Of a DNA stretch of 64,000 nucleotides, positions 13,846 through 30,835 are shown one piece after another (position 1 is the first letter of the stretch; the number at the start of each line of letters is the position of its first letter). Origin of the DNA: Candidatus Uhrbacteria bacterium. Its GTDB lineage: Bacteria; Patescibacteriota; Patescibacteriia; UBA9934; GWF2-40-263. The DNA lies in the NCBI GenBank assembly GCA_014239775.1, contig JAAZYG010000005.1:6746-70745 (forward strand), written 5' to 3'. The notes beneath the pieces are model-generated. The model was not told the DNA's origin, made no database searches, and was given only the letters and a program-made list of their open reading frames with translations. The position numbers and the translations under genes were made by a program.

Positions 13846-15123
13846 GTGCAAATAAGCACAACACCATCTCAGAAAAGGAGAATTTTAATGCTGCAAAACA
13901 TTTTTGAACCCCCCACCCTCATGGGAATGCAATTTTGTATTCCTGAAAACGACTCGCGTCCGGGCCTGCCGGGCAAGATCGAGGTTCTAGGTCGCAAGGC
14001 CCAGAAGTACTTCACAGGAAAGATAAACTTCCAAGAAAGCCATTTCAACAAAGGTGTTGCCGTCAGTCTGTGCATTCAGGCTGGTCAGGACTGGACCAAG
14101 TTGGGAAGCATTTCTGCGCTGAAAAAGCGTGGTAATGAGCTCCGGCTGATCTCTGAAGCCAGCGTGATTGCTGCTTCTACTGGTCTTCCGGTTGAATGGC
14201 TCGTTAAAGGAACTGAGTCTGTCGAAGGACTGCGAATGATCAAAAAGGCGGTTGAACTCGCTCGAAAGGTCAATCGTAATCACATGTTCTGGAGCAGTGT
14301 AATGACTCCCAGTCAAGTGATTGACCAGGAAATGAACGTCCTTTTGGCTCTGGAAGATGCCCTTATCACCGCACTCAAGACTAACCCCAAGAGTGATGAT
14401 GAGAAGGAAGATCTCAAGCAGAGTACAACGACTGTTGATCTGCGTGACATGGATATGGAGGCTTTCATCGAAGGTCTAGTTCCTGTACCTTCAGAACTTC
14501 CGAAGTTGCCTAGTACCAGGTCTGAATCCGACACCAAAGTCAAGGCAAAAACCTGTACTGACAACAATTGTGTGATCGTGAAGCGGATTGAACTGCATGA
14601 ACCTGGAACCTTGGTGGTTATTAATAACGAACTTCGTTATGTTTGCTGCGGCAAGCATGGCAAATGCCGTTCTTTGATGACACCTGAGGTCGCAAGAGTG
14701 ACTGCAGATGAAAGTAGGCTTCGACGTCAGTACCGGATCCCTGCTTGGAAGCAGATTGTGACTGAAGACTTTCAGTCTGATCGCCACACGGTCTACTGTC
14801 CGAGTTGTTCAAAATTCATCCTCAAGGATGGGTCAAAGACACTCGCACAATGGATCACTTCTGCTGAAGAGACTGAGAGAGATCTTTCTCGAAATGGTAG
14901 GCAAATCGCACGTAGCTTGGGATACAACAATCCCTTGAACAACGACGCCTACCTTGAGCTGGCATTGGCAGAGCCAGGACTGCGTGCTAACGGAATCGTT
15001 GGCCCCAATAAGACCCGAAAAGGTCCAATGGGAATTCGCGCAGCCTTGGCAATCTCCAAGACCAACCCGAATCGTCGTAACGGCAAAAACCGTAGCAACA
15101 ATCGGAATGCTCAACGCTCCTAA
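13846..15123 (+). CDS. hypothetical Cys-rich protein with a zinc-ribbon-like C-terminal half and a basic Arg/Asn-rich tail, in a compositionally foreign ORF (probable start 13888, 411 aa)
   Basis: Long ORF whose G+C is visibly far above the flanks (about half by eye, against roughly 30%). An AAGGAG SD sits 7 nt before the ATG at 13888. Cys pairs CTDNNC, CCGKHGKC and CPSC are present, and the C-terminal tail is KTNPNRRNGKNRSNNRNAQRS. It lacks the Lys/Asn/Ile bias of the host proteins. Confidence 0.5.
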   Translation: MQISTTPSQKRRILMLQNIFEPPTLMGMQFCIPENDSRPGLPGKIEVLGRKAQKYFTGKINFQESHFNKGVAVSLCIQAGQDWTKLGSISALKKRGNELRLISEASVIAASTGLPVEWLVKGTESVEGLRMIKKAVELARKVNRNHMFWSSVMTPSQVIDQEMNVLLALEDALITALKTNPKSDDEKEDLKQSTTTVDLRDMDMEAFIEGLVPVPSELPKLPSTRSESDTKVKAKTCTDNNCVIVKRIELHEPGTLVVINNELRYVCCGKHGKCRSLMTPEVARVTADESRLRRQYRIPAWKQIVTEDFQSDRHTVYCPSCSKFILKDGSKTLAQWITSAEETERDLSRNGRQIARSLGYNNPLNNDAYLELALAEPGLRANGIVGPNKTRKGPMGIRAALAISKTNPNRRNGKNRSNNRNAQRS

Positions 15124-26039: not shown

Positions 26040-28274
26040 ATGTACACAAAGCTACAAAAGAGATCAAATTTTATGAATCCAACACTACAGGCAGCAAACT
26101 ATCAACCCTCCAGTCCTCAGGAAAAAATAGATGGAATATCTCTATTACTACCAGTAAAATCACGTAATGGTTTTGTGTTTTTAGTAGCAAATATCAAAAA
26201 AAGATCAACAGATTCAGAATTACTTCTACAGTTTTTAAATGATCAAATACACAGATTGGCAGATTCTTTTGGAAAAGAAGCAAATGCACAACATAGATTT
26301 GAACAATTTCTTGGTGCATTAAATGAAAACATCTCACAACAAGTCAGAGATGGTAAATGGAAAGTACAAATAGATGAATTTGATGCAATGATTGGAATAG
26401 CCTGTGAAACACAAATGTATTTATCTGGCACAGGTGAATTGACCGCACTTTTTCTTCATAAGAAACCCTCTCAAAGATATCAAATATTTAATTTATTTAG
26501 AGGGATACAAACAGAACAAAATCTACCAACCTGGGAAAAGACATTTGCTGTAATACTGGACGGTGACCTGCATGGTGGTGATGTGTTTTGTATATCAAAT
26601 AAAAATCTTCAACAAGAGATCCAAAACGAAGAACTTAATAGTATTTTAACAACACTTCCACCAAAAGGTGCGGCAGAAAAAATAAGACAGTACTTTTCAG
26701 AAAAAGAAAATGTTCTTATTCTTATTATAAAATCTGAAACAGATAAATCTGTAGAAAAAAATAAACAAGCAAAAATCTTATCTGACGTATCAATTGACAA
26801 ATTAACCAAATCTGAAGAAAAAACCACAGAGCTATTATCAGAAAAAAAACCAAAAATTGGCAAAATTATTATTTGGATACTAGAAAAAATATTTAGCAAA
26901 CAACCAGCATCAAGAATATTGAAGGATCTTAGAAAAGGTGAATCAAAATGGAAAATTGCGCTACACGCAACACAAATATTAGGACGAACTGGTATTAAAT
27001 ACACTAAAAATATATCCAAAAAAACTCTTAAAAAAGGAGGTCAACTAGCAAAAAAAGAAAACAGAAAAGTTGCTATAAATAAAGTCATGAAAGAAGGCTC
27101 TAATATATCTAATCGAATATTTAATCTAAAAAATAAATTATTTGGTTTACCAAAATCAACAAAATACTTAACAATTGGAGTAATTATAATTGTAATAACA
27201 TTAGCTTTTAGTGTATCCCTTCTATCAAAAGCTCAAGTAAAAAATAAAGAACAAAAAGCTTATGATGATGCACTTAATAAAGTTGAAGATGTTATAGAAA
27301 GAGCGGCTGGTGCAATTATTTATAAAGATGAAAATCAGGCAAGAACACTCTACATTAACGCTCTTAGCCTTATTGATAAGCTGCCAAGCGATTCAGTAGA
27401 GCGTAGTAAAAAAATAAGTGATCTAAAAATTGATATAAGAAATGCCACAGATGAAATTCGACACATGGTTACAATACCAAATCCAGCACTGATAACAGAT
27501 CTTGCATTACTAAACGACGGCTTGTTTGTAAATTCATTCACAAATCTAGAAAAAGAATTATACGTACACGCATCAGATGGTAAATTATATAAATTTAATA
27601 GAACACAAAAGTTATTCAAAGCAGTAAGTCTAAAATTAGAAAAAATAGATACACAAATTATATCATCATCATCTAACAATAATTTTGTATATGCAATAGA
27701 TGAAAATGGAGACATGTATTCACATGATATAGAATCCTTGGCTCAAGAAAAAATAAACCTTGAAACAATTATAAAAGGTACTGATATTGTAGCCTATGCA
27801 AATAGACTTTATTTACTTAGTCCAGCAGAAAATGAAGAAGGACAAATTTATCGATATTCTGCATCTGGCTCAATTTTTAGTAAACCACAACCATGGATTA
27901 AGGCCAAAACAACAAACCTAAATAATGCAACATCCTTAGCTATAGATGGAACAATATTTGTTCTAAAGAAAAGTGGTCAAATTATAAGATACATAAGCGG
28001 AAGCGAAGTTGGTTGGAGTGCCGGAATCGTTGATCCACCAATTACAAGTGCGACTAACATATGGACTGACACCGAGAGTAATTATGTGTATGTAATGGAA
28101 CCTTCAACAAAACGTATTATTATTTTTGAAAAGGAGACAGGAAATTTCGTTGTTCAATATAAATCAACTGCTTTTTCTGAAATGGTGAATTTTGTAGTGG
28201 ATGAATCAAATTATACAATTTATATCATGTCTGGATCTAAGTTATACTCAATAGCAGCGAGTCACCTTAAATAA
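26040..28274 (+). CDS. large hypothetical protein: cytoplasmic N-domain, central TM helix, roughly 350-aa C-terminal domain
   Basis: 744-aa ORF. The TM helix is YLTIGVIIIVITLAFSVSLL, around residues 375-395. I recognise no catalytic motif. Confidence 0.4.
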   Translation: MYTKLQKRSNFMNPTLQAANYQPSSPQEKIDGISLLLPVKSRNGFVFLVANIKKRSTDSELLLQFLNDQIHRLADSFGKEANAQHRFEQFLGALNENISQQVRDGKWKVQIDEFDAMIGIACETQMYLSGTGELTALFLHKKPSQRYQIFNLFRGIQTEQNLPTWEKTFAVILDGDLHGGDVFCISNKNLQQEIQNEELNSILTTLPPKGAAEKIRQYFSEKENVLILIIKSETDKSVEKNKQAKILSDVSIDKLTKSEEKTTELLSEKKPKIGKIIIWILEKIFSKQPASRILKDLRKGESKWKIALHATQILGRTGIKYTKNISKKTLKKGGQLAKKENRKVAINKVMKEGSNISNRIFNLKNKLFGLPKSTKYLTIGVIIIVITLAFSVSLLSKAQVKNKEQKAYDDALNKVEDVIERAAGAIIYKDENQARTLYINALSLIDKLPSDSVERSKKISDLKIDIRNATDEIRHMVTIPNPALITDLALLNDGLFVNSFTNLEKELYVHASDGKLYKFNRTQKLFKAVSLKLEKIDTQIISSSSNNNFVYAIDENGDMYSHDIESLAQEKINLETIIKGTDIVAYANRLYLLSPAENEEGQIYRYSASGSIFSKPQPWIKAKTTNLNNATSLAIDGTIFVLKKSGQIIRYISGSEVGWSAGIVDPPITSATNIWTDTESNYVYVMEPSTKRIIIFEKETGNFVVQYKSTAFSEMVNFVVDESNYTIYIMSGSKLYSIAASHLK

Positions 28275-29285: not shown

Positions 29286-29500
29286 AGTATTTTGTATATT
29301 TATCGACCTTTAAATAAAAAACTGCCGATTACATACCGCAGTGTTCTAAGAAAACTTTTCAGAATCTCATTTACCTCGACAGGACTTATTTCATTAATGA
29401 AAACCTGTTGTCTACGGCGGATATGTTCATTACTAATAGCAATGTAGCATCTCCAATCTTTAGTTCAAAAAGAGTATATATAAAACATATATGATTGTCA

Positions 29501-29528
29501 ATAAAAAAAGCGACTAGTTTAGTCGCTT
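29501..29528 (-). terminator. intrinsic terminator overlapping the stop of the zinc-ribbon repeat gene
   Basis: The minus strand reads aagcgacta-aac-tagtcgctt followed by TTTTTTT. Confidence 0.5.
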
Positions 29529-30100
29529 AGAGTCCAATTGTCTGGTCTACCGCATCTCCTCCACTGCCGGTAATGTTTAAGACAATAACCTTTTGAGTCG
29601 TGTATGTTTTTACATCCAGCAACCTTGCAACCAACATGCTTTATGCGTGGTGGTGGTGTCCAGTTGTCTGGTCTTCCGTGATCCCGCCAATTATCGAAAT
29701 GCTTCCTGCAACAACCTTTTGTTCTATGAGGATTTATACATCCATCTATCTTACAACCAACATGCTTTATGCATGGTGGTGGTGGCGTCCAGTTGTCTGG
29801 TCTTCCGTGATCCCGCCACTGCTGGTAATGCTTCCTGCAATAACCTTTTGATTGGTGAGGATTAATGCATCCAGCAACCTTGCAACCAACATGCTTTATG
29901 CGTGGTGGTGGTGGTGGCGTCCAGTTGTCTGGTCTACCACTTTTCAACCACTGCTGGTAATGCTTATTGCAATAACCTTTTGCACTACGCACTTGATCAC
30001 ACACACCAACCTTACAAAATCGAATCATTAAATAAAACCTTGTTGCACAAAAGTAACATATACAACGAAAAATATTAGAATAAAAAACCAACATTGTCAA
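29519..30100 (-). CDS. tandem-repeat zinc-ribbon protein (4 copies of a ~42-aa C-x4-C-x8-C-x2-H module with PPPP linkers); likely true start at the internal MIRF (30028)
   Basis: Four repeats CK[VI].GC......KGYC.KHY.QWR..GRPDNWTPPPP. The module resembles the zinc-binding GxCxxHYxRWxRxG motif found N-terminal in some phage and actinobacterial HNH proteins (from memory, not verified). Confidence 0.55.
   Translation of the reverse strand: MTMLVFYSNIFRCICYFCATRFYLMIRFCKVGVCDQVRSAKGYCNKHYQQWLKSGRPDNWTPPPPPRIKHVGCKVAGCINPHQSKGYCRKHYQQWRDHGRPDNWTPPPPCIKHVGCKIDGCINPHRTKGCCRKHFDNWRDHGRPDNWTPPPRIKHVGCKVAGCKNIHDSKGYCLKHYRQWRRCGRPDNWTLSD
29590..29960. repeat. imperfect tandem DNA repeats of roughly 126-129 bp encoding the protein repeats
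   Basis: Recurrent blocks aaccaacatgctttatgcgtggtggtgg...ccagttgtctggtcttccgtgatcccgcca. The region is more G+C-rich than its surroundings. Confidence 0.7.
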
Positions 30101-30124
30101 TCCAACAATGTTAGTCTTTGTATA

Positions 30125-30835
30125 CTACACACCTATAATAGTACCTATAAAACCCTTACCTCTTAATAAATTATCTAAATTTTCAATATTTTTACCATTC
30201 AATAAGGCCACCTTAATCTTTGATGTACTTGCCAGGCGTGATGCTACTGGATCAAATGGTACATTCATACCAGGATCCCACTTATTACCAACCATCTTTC
30301 TAAAATCCTTCCACGATATATCACAAATTATTTTTGCGTCCTTATGTTTGTTTGGATCCTTATCATAAACATAATCTATGTTAGACAAATTAACCAGAAC
30401 TTCTGCTTTTAATCTTTTTGCAAGTCTTGTTGCAACATAATCTGTTGACCATCCTGGTTTCCACCCAGCTGCAATAAGTACTGGCTTCTTCCATTTTGTT
30501 AATGGCCTTGTTGGATCTTTAAGCATTACAGGATGTGCAATGTCACGAAATACAGTTCGCAGCAAATGTCCATTTAACCTTGTAGAGTGAATTCCTAACC
30601 AATCAAGATCATCACGAGTAAGCTTACCAACTTTTCGTGCACTCTCTTGATAATGACGAGCAGTTCCACCACCACCCACAACAATAACAAATCTCCAATC
30701 TCGTTTTGTATGCTCACTTATAAGTACATGTAAATCTTTCAAAAACTTATGATCGATTCCGCCATTTGGCACAACCAATGATCCTCCAACTGAAATAACT
30801 AATGTAGACGGCTCAAGTGAATTTGAATGTGTCAT
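30125..30835 (-). CDS. pyrH: uridylate (UMP) kinase, amino-acid-kinase family
   Basis: VISVGGSLV...VIVVGGGG..R glycine-rich motifs and the size are typical of PyrH. Confidence 0.7.
   Translation of the reverse strand: MTHSNSLEPSTLVISVGGSLVVPNGGIDHKFLKDLHVLISEHTKRDWRFVIVVGGGGTARHYQESARKVGKLTRDDLDWLGIHSTRLNGHLLRTVFRDIAHPVMLKDPTRPLTKWKKPVLIAAGWKPGWSTDYVATRLAKRLKAEVLVNLSNIDYVYDKDPNKHKDAKIICDISWKDFRKMVGNKWDPGMNVPFDPVASRLASTSKIKVALLNGKNIENLDNLLRGKGFIGTIIGV

What the first reader, a model, noticed from the sequence alone, without database searches (positions are those of the whole stretch)
29519..30100. Protein built from four tandem copies of a C-x4-C-x8-C-x2-H zinc-ribbon module with poly-Pro linkers
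The ORF consists almost entirely of four roughly 42-aa repeats, CK[VI].GC.N.H..KGYC.KHY.QWR.HGRPDNWTPPPP. The repeats are mirrored at the DNA level by imperfect 126-129-bp tandem repeats at 29590-29960. From memory, the single module resembles a zinc-binding motif found at the N-terminus of some phage and actinobacterial HNH-type proteins, GxCxxHYxRWxRxG. Here it is polymerised and no nuclease domain is attached. That suggests a multivalent nucleic-acid-binding or scaffold protein. It sits between the rplJL operon and pyrH and has its own terminator. The annotated N-terminal 24 aa are probably not translated, since the internal MIRF start lies directly before repeat 1.
Basis: partly seen in the sequence, partly recalled or inferred. 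Interest (0 to 1): 0.6.

Follow-up and report, generated by a model that had tools for sequence, protein, structure and literature searches.

The report
Stand-alone four-module CCCH zinc-finger array
A small, very basic protein of a candidate-phylum (Uhrbacteria-like) bacterium consists of four tandem zinc-binding mini-domains of a widespread but uncharacterised type, best known from the N-termini of phage HNH endonucleases; it has no nuclease and most likely binds DNA, so it is a real but fairly ordinary member of an unstudied family.

Summary
Window 29519-30028 (-) encodes a 169-aa protein of four ~42-aa repeats, mirrored by a 129-bp DNA tandem repeat.

The module is not a zinc ribbon. AlphaFold puts two ligands on a knuckle and two at the start of a helix, which is treble-clef-like, and models four independent beads on proline-rich linkers.

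The module family is very large: 42,291 cluster representatives, with arrays of up to about 25 copies. It borders Pfam DUF5763 and Zf_WRKY19. It occurs N-terminal to HNH_3, HNH, endonuclease VII and GIY-YIG domains. About two thirds of the nearest relatives have no nuclease Pfam domain, including Bacillus phage 0305phi8-36 gp9. Polymerisation without a nuclease is therefore common.

The gene is a lineage-specific insertion in a variable pyrH-rplJ spacer. It is absent from all 80 related Patescibacteria loci. Relatives with 2-4 modules sit at other chromosomal sites in other Uhrbacteria-like contigs.

The ATG (MIRF) start is supported. Copy number is only partly corroborated by sister assemblies.

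Multivalent DNA binding is inferred, not shown. Verdict: new member of a known but uncharacterised kind, of modest interest.

The parts
30078..30119 (-). pyrH intrinsic terminator hairpin plus T-tract. It overlaps the -35 box of the zinc-finger gene and contains the TTG (30100) and ATG (30094) that open the long 193-aa ORF.
   Evidence: An inverted repeat pairs 30083-30097 with 30105-30119. The RNA fold is -18.4 kcal/mol and is followed by UUUUUU. A related strain's contig, L005, is conserved up to the T-tract and diverges after it.
30072..30100 (-). Sigma-70-like promoter TTGACA-17-TAATAT for the zinc-finger gene.
   Evidence: The promoter scan scores 10 of 12. ATTGACAAT is a recurrent extended -35 at 5 intergenic sites in the window.
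29519..30028 (-). Coding sequence of 169 aa plus stop, starting MIRFCKV. The protein has pI 9.74, net charge +22, 15 Cys, 12 His, 8 Trp, 18 Pro and no Glu.
   Evidence: Homologues also start a few residues before the first Cys.
29903..30028 (-). Module 1 (aa 1-42), ligands C5, C10, C20, H23. Tail HYQQWLKSGRPDNWTPPPPP.
   Evidence: AF2 helix 21-30, pLDDT 84-88.
29774..29902 (-). Module 2 (aa 43-85), ligands C49, C54, C64, H67.
   Evidence: AF2 helix 65-74, pLDDT 87-90.
29648..29773 (-). Module 3 (aa 86-127), ligands C92, C97, C107, H110. It reads KGCC and HF instead of KGYC and HY.
   Evidence: AF2 helix 108-117.
29522..29647 (-). Module 4 (aa 128-169), ligands C134, C139, C149, H152. It has no poly-Pro tail.
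   Evidence: AF2 helix 150-159, pLDDT 89-93.
29508..29528 (-). Intrinsic terminator of the zinc-finger gene: a 9-bp stem, 3-nt loop and T-run. It overlaps the stop codon.
29473..29501 (-). Context: rplJL promoter TTGACA-17-TATACT, which marks the downstream edge of the inserted segment.
   Evidence: 11 of 12. It is followed by the L10 leader RF00557 at 29306-29435.

Best explanation
The gene encodes a stand-alone array of four structurally independent CCCH zinc mini-domains. In each, a C-x4-C knuckle and a C-x2-H at the start of a short helix hold one structural zinc, which is treble-clef-like. The domains are joined by flexible or PPII proline-rich linkers.

The module belongs to a very large, experimentally uncharacterised family bordering Pfam DUF5763 and Zf_WRKY19. 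Elsewhere this family sits N-terminal to several unrelated DNA-cutting or DNA-recombining domains: HNH_3 with AP2, HNH, endonuclease VII, GIY-YIG and a tyrosine integrase. It also often occurs alone. The inferred mechanism is that each module is a small basic DNA-binding unit and that the four together bind DNA multivalently without cutting it, for example as a regulator or nucleoid-type protein.

The gene is an accessory, laterally acquired cassette (-10 box, 5' UTR, CDS and terminator, about 570 bp). It is inserted between the pyrH terminator and the rplJ promoter in one Uhrbacteria-like lineage. Its repeats arose by internal tandem duplication.

Shown here: the anatomy, conservation of the ligands, family membership by homology, absence of a nuclease, and the insertion and variable locus. 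Inferred: zinc binding, DNA binding and any cellular role.
For: - Ligands: C, C, C and H are the only invariant columns in 68 aligned modules from 26 proteins, and the Gly before the third Cys is nearly invariant.
- Structure: the AF2 single-module model has pLDDT 74, with a knuckle, a short hairpin and helix 23-32. The full-length model has mean pLDDT 79 with modules at 84-93, linkers at 50-66 and pTM 0.32, which indicates beads on a string.
- Family size: an exhaustive profile search gives 42,291 representatives at E<=1e-3, with up to about 25 matched stretches per protein.
- Domain associations: HNH_3, AP2, HNH, Endonuclease_7, GIY-YIG and Phage_integrase.
- Phage links: PHROG HNH families match only over their N-terminal region. 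Foldseek against viral models puts phage HNH and endonuclease VII proteins and 0305phi8-36 gp9/gp10 at the top.
- Charge: pI 9.74, net +22, no Glu.
- Selection: dN/dS between repeats is 0.22-0.78.
- Transcription unit: own promoter and terminator.
- Insertion: the synteny xseA-xseB-holin4-pyrH-[gap]-rplJ-rplL is conserved. The gap ranges from 183 to about 4000 bp and holds unrelated cargo, and 0 of 80 loci carry the module.
- Composition: GC3 is 0.38 against 0.22 +/- 0.03 for 52 window genes.
- Relatives: the nearest ones are also nuclease-free and chromosomal. P0140 has 4 modules and lies in a Patescibacteria-like contig near xseA. P0209 has 2 modules, comes from Ca. Uhrbacteria and shows the same context in the contigs listed, out of 23 read. 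P0175 is also chromosomal.
Against: - No experiment or solved structure exists for any member. PDB sequence searches and Foldseek against the PDB give nothing significant. No papers mention DUF5763 or PF24906.
- The target itself fails the Pfam gathering scores.
- DNA binding rests on charge and domain association only. RNA or protein binding is not excluded.
- GC3 at four-fold sites equals the host mean, so the compositional evidence for foreign origin is mixed.
- Expression has not been shown.
- No operator-like DNA repeats were found next to the gene.
Confidence: 0.6

Rival explanations
1. The gene is a decaying remnant of a homing-endonuclease gene. An HNH or endonuclease VII homing endonuclease inserted here and later lost its catalytic domain. 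What remains is a non-functional or selfish leftover.
For: The module is typical of phage HNH and endonuclease VII genes. The locus is a variable spot and the gene is absent in 80 related loci. GC3 is atypical. A related strain's contig diverges right at the edge of the cassette. One homologue, P0175, shows a frameshift within its array.
Against: No trace of a nuclease domain lies upstream or downstream, because the stop codon overlaps the terminator. All 16 zinc ligands are intact and dN/dS is below 1 between repeats. The gene has a host-type promoter. The 12 best hits of the single-protein search and the 7 best of the profile search are themselves nuclease-free arrays, some stably chromosomal across many samples. 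The stand-alone form is therefore a lineage, not a one-off truncation.
Confidence: 0.15
2. The protein is an RNA-binding, ribosome-associated or protein-scaffold factor rather than a DNA binder. It is a small basic zinc protein placed next to the rplJL operon, with PPII linkers that serve as docking sites.
For: It is adjacent to the L10 leader and rplJL. The top Foldseek PDB matches, although non-significant, are zinc-containing ribosomal proteins and a topoisomerase zinc finger. The linkers are poly-proline.
Against: Those PDB matches have E>3. The position next to rplJ is not conserved: 0 of 80 loci have it, and homologues sit near xseA, sodA or LOG genes. The domain partners are DNA enzymes, not RNA enzymes.
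Confidence: 0.1
3. The four-copy array is an assembly artefact, with the wrong copy number or a collapsed or expanded tandem repeat.
For: Three to four sister-sample assemblies break at or inside the array. Contig L004 ends with the repeat 3-to-4 linker directly after repeat 2. That fits a three-repeat allele or a graph tip.
Against: L002 reproduces repeat 4 and most of repeat 3 at 99.9% identity. L004 reproduces repeats 1-2 at 99.8% identity, from different samples. The longest exact internal repeat is only 46 nt, which reads of 100 nt or more can span. Each repeat has its own substitutions and the frame stays open.
Confidence: 0.08

Closest known systems
Bacillus phage 0305phi8-36 gp9 (182 aa) and its paralogue gp10, annotated 'Cys-rich domain protein; may contain zinc fingers' or 'HNH endonuclease'
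   Same: gp9 is a stand-alone protein of four tandem C-x4-C-x9-C-x2-H modules, about 180 aa long, with no recognisable nuclease. tblastn gives 29% identity over 92% of the query. The 182-aa and 244-aa viral models A7KV19 and A7KV20 are among the top Foldseek matches and match gp9 and gp10 in length; that identification is by length only.
   Different: gp9 is encoded in a phage early-gene block, not a bacterial chromosome. Its linkers are not proline-rich and it lacks the GRPDNW-PPP tail. No function has been shown for it either.
N-terminal modules of phage and actinobacterial HNH_3/AP2, HNH and endonuclease VII proteins (PHROG 5351, 1271, 3593, 19978), e.g. Gordonia phage BrutonGaster gp127
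   Same: They share the CCCH module and the HYxRWxxxG(D/R)P helix motif, usually in 2-3 tandem copies.
   Different: Those proteins continue into a His-Me-finger nuclease domain. The window protein ends after module 4.
Pfam DUF5763 (PF19067) and Zf_WRKY19 (PF24906)
   Same: The ligand pattern is the same kind. 8 and 12 of the 68 aligned modules hit these models at E<0.01, and several homologues carry them as precomputed domains.
   Different: The target scores 14.5 bits against DUF5763, whose cut-off is 26.3, and does not hit Zf_WRKY19. Both Pfam entries are of unknown function, and Zf_WRKY19 is named from a plant protein.
Stand-alone arrays in other Uhrbacteria/Patescibacteria-like contigs: P0140 (4 modules), P0209 (2 modules), P0175 (3 modules plus a fourth out of frame), P0001 (3 modules)
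   Same: They share the G(R/C)P(D/T)NW tail subtype at 45-56% identity. They are chromosomal with housekeeping neighbours. At least P0209 has its own terminator.
   Different: They sit at different loci (upstream of xseA, upstream of sodA, next to a LOG-family gene) and differ in copy number. None is at the pyrH-rplJ spacer.
Trp-cage miniprotein TC5b / exendin-4 C-terminus (PDB 1L2Y)
   Same: KHYQQWLKSGRPDNWTPPPP aligns without gaps to [20 protein letters not shown] at 10 of 20 identities. Tyr, Trp, Gly, Pro and the PPP run fall in the same register. AF2 places a short helical turn at P-D-N, at the position that, from general knowledge of the Trp-cage, corresponds to its 3-10 helix.
   Different: E is 0.13-0.6, which is not significant. 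Gly11 of the cage is Arg here. The tail is modelled at pLDDT 50-70. The resemblance is a lead, not a finding.

Membership tests
Pfam DUF5763 (PF19067) | HMM score at or above the gathering cut-off of 26.3 bits | tested here: not met
   14.5-14.8 bits, E 0.02. Homologues P0009, P0011 and P0024 do carry the domain.
Pfam Zf_WRKY19 (PF24906) | HMM score at or above the gathering cut-off of 27 bits | tested here: not met
   The target gives no hit. 12 of 68 family modules hit at E<0.01, and some multi-module relatives exceed the cut-off.
CCCH module family as defined here (alignment A2) | Invariant C-x4-C-x9-C-x2-H with G two residues before the third Cys, followed by an aromatic-x2-(W/L/F)-x3-G helix | tested here: met
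   All four modules of the target have it.
His-Me finger / HNH nucleases (HNH_3 PF13392, HNH PF01844, Endonuclease_7 PF02945) | beta-beta-alpha-metal catalytic core with the catalytic His | tested here: not met
   There is no Pfam or NCBIfam hit to any nuclease model. PHROG 5351 is matched only at profile positions 9-79 of 171. No coding space is left downstream.
   In both AF2 models the third and fourth ligands (C-x2-H) sit at the N-terminus of an alpha-helix: helix 23-32 in the module model, and helices 21-30, 65-74, 108-117 and 150-159 in the full model. These are predicted structures only.
Treble-clef zinc finger | Zinc knuckle plus ligands from the first turn of a helix, with an intervening hairpin (definition as quoted in PMC5714182) | tested here: inconclusive
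Zinc-binding protein | Stoichiometric zinc bound by the Cys3His set | not testable with these tools
   This is inferred from four invariant ligand columns. It needs a metal analysis.
Homing-endonuclease gene / mobile element | A nuclease, target-site duplication or other mobility hallmarks | tested here: not met
   There is no nuclease. The flanking ATTGACAAT direct repeat is a recurrent -35 consensus (5 sites; 9 of 100 shuffles reach that count), not a target-site duplication.
Anti-phage defence systems (PADLOC) | Match to a PADLOC model | tested here: not met
   No hits for the target, P0140 or P0209.
Trp-cage fold | Y-x2-W-x3-G-x-P-x4-PPP with the Trp buried by the prolines | tested here: inconclusive
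   The sequence register matches at 10 of 20 residues but E is 0.13.

The most novel reading that the evidence does not exclude
Two readings are not excluded.

(1) Each module may be a composite microdomain in which the zinc-stabilised helix is capped by a natural Trp-cage: Y-x2-W-x3-G-x-P-x4-PPP, in exact register with the designed TC5b miniprotein. That would make this one of the smallest two-element autonomous folds.

(2) The nuclease-free arrays of Uhrbacteria may be domesticated targeting modules of phage endonucleases. They could now serve the host as DNA-binding regulators, or as decoys that occupy the target sites of related homing endonucleases.
Probability: 0.1. Interest if true: 0.55.

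Novelty: new member of a known kind. Interest (0 to 1): 0.3.

Why it matters
The module family is very large: tens of thousands of 50%-identity clusters in phages, giant viruses, bacteria and candidate-phyla bacteria. It is attached to at least four classes of DNA-cutting or DNA-recombining enzymes. Despite this, it has no solved structure, no literature and no tested function. A 169-aa protein made only of four such modules would be a convenient minimal object for determining the fold, the metal content and the nucleic-acid specificity of the module. That knowledge would help explain how many phage HNH and endonuclease VII proteins find their targets. For the biology of this particular genome the gene is a small accessory insertion, and nothing suggests an unusual mechanism.

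Tried and rejected
- Exact-sequence look-ups of the 193-, 191- and 169-aa products found nothing, so the source genome is not in the collection.
- NCBIfam gave no meaningful hit. PADLOC gave none.
- PDB sequence searches with the protein and with the module profile gave only chance-level hits. Foldseek of the module against the PDB gave E>3.
- Literature searches for DUF5763, PF19067, Zf_WRKY19, PF24906 and the spacing formula returned nothing. A WRKY19 search was uninformative.
- Target-site duplication: the 9-bp ATTGACAAT on both sides of the gene is a recurrent extended -35 box in this genome, so this idea was rejected.
- Prophage context: none in the window. The 'Phage_holin_4_2' neighbour is part of the conserved Uhrbacteria synteny.
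- Operator-like repeats beside the gene: none beyond the two terminators.
- Viral and metagenome scans with the protein found no close orthologue, only single-module matches and one phage HNH_3/AP2 gene.
- Compositional evidence of foreign origin is ambiguous. Overall GC3 has z=4.8, but four-fold GC3 equals the host mean.
- The + strand ORFs inside the array are shadows of the repeat and have no homologues.
Full report
**1. What is there**

The minus strand of window 29519-30100 carries an open frame of 193 codons from a TTG. Tandem Repeats Finder reports a 129-bp unit, 3.5 copies, 80% matches and score 518 at 29532-29982.

Translated from the internal ATG at 30028, the product is 169 aa and divides into four units: aa 1-42, 43-85, 86-127 and 128-169. 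They read MIRFCKVGVCDQVRSAKGYCNKHYQQWLKSGRPDNWTPPPPP, RIKHVGCKVAGCINPHQSKGYCRKHYQQWRDHGRPDNWTPPPP, CIKHVGCKIDGCINPHRTKGCCRKHFDNWRDHGRPDNWTPPP and RIKHVGCKVAGCKNIHDSKGYCLKHYRQWRRCGRPDNWTLSD.

- The units match each other at tblastn E 1e-10 to 1e-27. The motif occurs nowhere else in the 64 kb.
- Pairwise, the cores are 50-76% identical in protein and 65-83% in DNA. dN/dS is 0.22-0.78, so the copies have diverged under purifying selection.
- The protein has pI 9.74, net charge +22, 15 Cys, 12 His, 8 Trp, 18 Pro and no Glu.

**2. Gene boundaries**

- pyrH is identified as TIGR02076, archaeal-type UMP kinase, at 184 bits. It ends at 30125.
- A hairpin follows pyrH, with arms at 30105-30119 and 30083-30097 and then a T-run. 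The RNA fold is -18.4 kcal/mol. This is the pyrH terminator.
- The TTG (30100) and ATG (30094) that open the long ORF lie inside this hairpin. They also lie within a TTGACA-17-TAATAT promoter-like site at 30100-30072.
- The first in-frame start downstream of the -10 box is the ATG at 30028, four codons before the first Cys. Homologues likewise begin a few residues before their first Cys.
- The stop codon overlaps a clean terminator at 29528-29508 (9-bp stem plus T-run).
- Directly after it come the rplJL promoter (TTGACA-17-TATACT, 29501-29473) and the L10 leader (RF00557, 29306-29435, 48.3 bits).
- The unit specific to this gene is thus about 570 bp: -10 box, 5' UTR, CDS and terminator.

**3. 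Is the array assembled correctly?**

The exact protein is not in the 15-billion-protein collection. Identical RplJ and PyrH proteins occur on short contigs from sister samples of one project.

- L002 covers window 29735-28481 at 99.9% identity, which includes repeat 4 and most of repeat 3.
- L004 covers 31878-29762 at 99.8% identity, which includes repeats 1-2.
- All these assemblies break at or in the array.
- L004 ends with the repeat 3-to-4 linker (CACCACCACCACGC) directly after repeat 2. This indicates either a three-repeat allele or a graph tip.
- The longest exact internal repeat is 46 nt. Ordinary reads should resolve that.
- The four-copy structure is therefore plausible and both ends are corroborated, but the copy number is not independently proven.

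**4. What the module is**

*Database matches.* Pfam gives only a sub-threshold DUF5763 match of 14.5 bits against a cut-off of 26.3. NCBIfam gives nothing. PHROGs matches several 'HNH endonuclease' families strongly (phrog_5351 at 4.9e-30, phrog_1271 at 1.1e-20), but only over their N-terminal parts, positions 9-79 of 171 for phrog_5351.

*Homologues.* The first homology search returned 25 proteins with 2-6 tandem modules. Some are followed by HNH_3, AP2 or HNH domains. The 12 best have no other domain.

*Conservation.* Aligning 68 modules leaves exactly four invariant columns, C, C, C and H, plus a nearly invariant Gly.

*Family size.* An exhaustive profile search of 1.84 billion cluster representatives finds 42,291 proteins at E<=1e-3, 14,339 at E<=1e-10 and 1,194 at E<=1e-30. 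Up to about 25 stretches match per protein.

*Partner domains.* Top hits carry Zf_WRKY19 (PF24906), DUF5763, HNH_3 or a phage integrase domain. 12 and 8 of the 68 modules hit Zf_WRKY19 and DUF5763 respectively. A second, subfamily-profile search lists 120 relatives. By my count of the listed Pfam column, about 26 have HNH_3, 6 HNH, 5 Endonuclease_7, 1 GIY-YIG and about 82 no catalytic domain.

*Sequenced phages.* The module lies in genes annotated HNH endonuclease, endonuclease VII, hypothetical protein or 'Cys-rich domain protein; may contain zinc fingers'. Bacillus phage 0305phi8-36 gp9 (182 aa) is itself four stand-alone modules.

The idea that polymerisation without a nuclease is unusual is not.

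**5. Fold**

- AlphaFold2 on the module alignment gives pLDDT 74, with a knuckle, a small hairpin and a helix at residues 23-32.
- The full-length model has mean pLDDT 79. The four modules score 84-93, the linkers 50-66, and pTM is 0.32, so it depicts four independent beads.
- The third Cys and the His sit at the N-terminus of the helix. This is the treble-clef arrangement as defined in PMC5714182, not a zinc ribbon.
- There is no solved relative by sequence or by Foldseek against the PDB.
- Foldseek against predicted viral structures returns phage HNH and endonuclease VII proteins. It also returns two unnamed 182-aa and 244-aa models (A7KV19, A7KV20), whose lengths match 0305phi8-36 gp9 and gp10, at E 1e-8 to 1e-6.

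**6. Genomic setting and evolution**

*Host.* RplJ is at most 69% identical to any GTDB species representative. The best loci are Candidatus Uhrbacteria and other Patescibacteria MAGs (taxonomy).

*Synteny.* In those loci the order xseA-xseB-holin4-pyrH-[gap]-rplJ-rplL is widely conserved. The gap varies from 183-270 bp (just promoter and leader) to about 4 kb and is filled with unrelated genes. None of the 80 loci contains the module, by tblastn or by motif scan. The gene is therefore a lineage-specific insertion in a variable spacer.

*Closest strain.* Contig L005 is 98.8% identical over pyrH. It stays conserved through the pyrH terminator and then diverges sharply.

*Composition.* GC3 of the gene is 0.38 against 0.22 +/- 0.03 for 52 window genes (z=4.8). 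The excess comes from two-fold codons, and four-fold GC3 equals the host mean. This is suggestive of foreign origin but not conclusive.

*Flanking repeat.* The 9-bp ATTGACAAT on both sides is a recurrent -35 motif, not a target-site duplication.

*Relatives in other bacteria.* Relatives with the same G(R/C)P(D/T)NW tail exist in other bacteria, at other chromosomal sites:
- P0140 is 46% identical and has 4 modules. It lies on a 50% GC Patescibacteria-like contig, divergent from and upstream of xseA in the same xseA-xseB-holin4-pyrH cluster.
- P0209 is 87 aa with 2 modules and ends in GRPTNWPPPS. It comes from Ca. Uhrbacteria GW2011_GWF2_40_263. It was read on 23 contigs, and every place listed shows it upstream of sodA; it has its own terminator.
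- P0175 has 3 modules plus a fourth out of frame, among housekeeping genes.
- P0001 has 3 modules and is 56% identical, on a 671-bp contig.

*Copy number.* Copy number thus varies from 2 to 4 among relatives. Within each protein some modules are each other's closest relatives: T2/T3/T4 at 76% and P0001 b/c at 85%. This fits repeated internal tandem duplication.

*Other contexts.* Other stand-alone arrays sit in phage-like contexts.

**7. Mechanism**

Shown:
- a conserved Cys3His set in four autonomous predicted mini-domains;
- strong positive charge;
- no nuclease;
- an independent transcription unit;
- family-wide attachment to four or five unrelated classes of DNA-processing catalytic domains.

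Inferred: each module binds one structural zinc and contacts DNA. The array binds DNA multivalently without cutting it. Its cellular role (regulator, nucleoid protein or decoy for related endonucleases) is open.

Rivals:
- A decaying homing-endonuclease remnant. Intact ligands, dN/dS below 1, a host-type promoter and nuclease-free nearest relatives argue against it.
- An RNA-, ribosome- or protein-binding role. The position next to rplJ is not conserved, and the PDB matches to ribosomal zinc proteins are at chance level.
- An assembly artefact, discussed in section 3.

**8. A curiosity**

The only PDB sequence matches are to the Trp-cage miniprotein. KHYQQWLKSGRPDNWTPPPP aligns without gaps to [20 protein letters not shown] at 10 of 20 identities. 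Tyr, Trp, Gly, Pro and the PPP run are in register.

AF2 puts a short helical turn at P-D-N. From general knowledge of the Trp-cage, that is the position of its 3-10 helix. The match is not significant (E 0.13-0.6). The tail is modelled at low confidence. Half of the pattern (Y-x2-W-x3-G-x-P) is simply the family consensus. I record it as a lead only.

**9. Verdict**

The fold label and the spacing need correction, and the architecture is common rather than exceptional. The gene is a new, divergent member of a very large, catalogued but experimentally unstudied zinc-module family. It sits as an accessory insertion in a candidate-phylum genome. Its interest is modest. Its main value is as a minimal model for a domain that many phage endonucleases carry.

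Noticed in passing
window 13846-15123 (+): A lone plus-strand ORF of 425 aa sits in a 48% GC island, against a window mean of 34%. It has several Cys clusters and no Pfam hit, and TTGACA promoter-like sites flank it. It looks like another foreign insertion.
   Followed up: partly
window 30078-30119 (-): The pyrH terminator hairpin (-18.4 kcal/mol) overlaps the -35 box of the next gene. The simple terminator scan missed it because the stem is AT-rich.
   Followed up: yes
window 1738, 3471, 29494, 30093, 47386: ATTGACAAT recurs at five intergenic, promoter-like positions. This suggests an extended -35 consensus in this genome, although 9 of 100 shuffles reach five matches.
   Followed up: partly
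L004 2090-2114 (sister-sample contig, equivalent to window ~29790-29762): The contig ends with the repeat 3-to-4 linker directly after repeat 2. It is either a three-repeat allele of the gene in sample SAMN14422882 or an assembly-graph tip.
   Followed up: partly
L005 810-869 (ERZ813196): This strain is 98.8% identical over pyrH. It diverges abruptly right after the pyrH terminator and then shows an ATG with a different reading (MMWVKEIV). The slot may hold different cargo in the closest relative.
   Followed up: partly
L119 6001-6620: Homologue P0175 is called as 197 aa, but its fourth zinc module is encoded in the +2 frame. This is a frameshift inside the tandem array, either real or a sequencing error.
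   Followed up: partly
L110 2682-3302: The four-module homologue P0140 lies next to the same xseA-xseB-holin4-pyrH cluster as in the window, but upstream of xseA and on the opposite strand. Its called N-terminus (about 32-45 aa before the first Cys) looks spurious, as in the window.
   Followed up: partly
L006-L085, gap between pyrH and rplJ: The pyrH-rplJ spacer is a hot spot for unrelated cargo across Uhrbacteria. Examples are a conserved ~290-aa protein in L007, L018 and L019 that looks PP2C-phosphatase-like by eye, and an Fpg-like glycosylase (also judged by eye) in L024. Neither assignment was checked with a family search.
   Followed up: no
window 26040-28274 (+): A 744-aa plus-strand ORF with strong AT skew has no Pfam or NCBIfam hit. 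It is present also in the sister contig L001.
   Followed up: no
window 29903-29917, 29774-29785, 29648-29656 (-): The linkers contain runs of five, four and three consecutive Pro codons, nearly all CCA. From general knowledge, such PPP motifs stall ribosomes without EF-P. This was not examined further.
   Followed up: no
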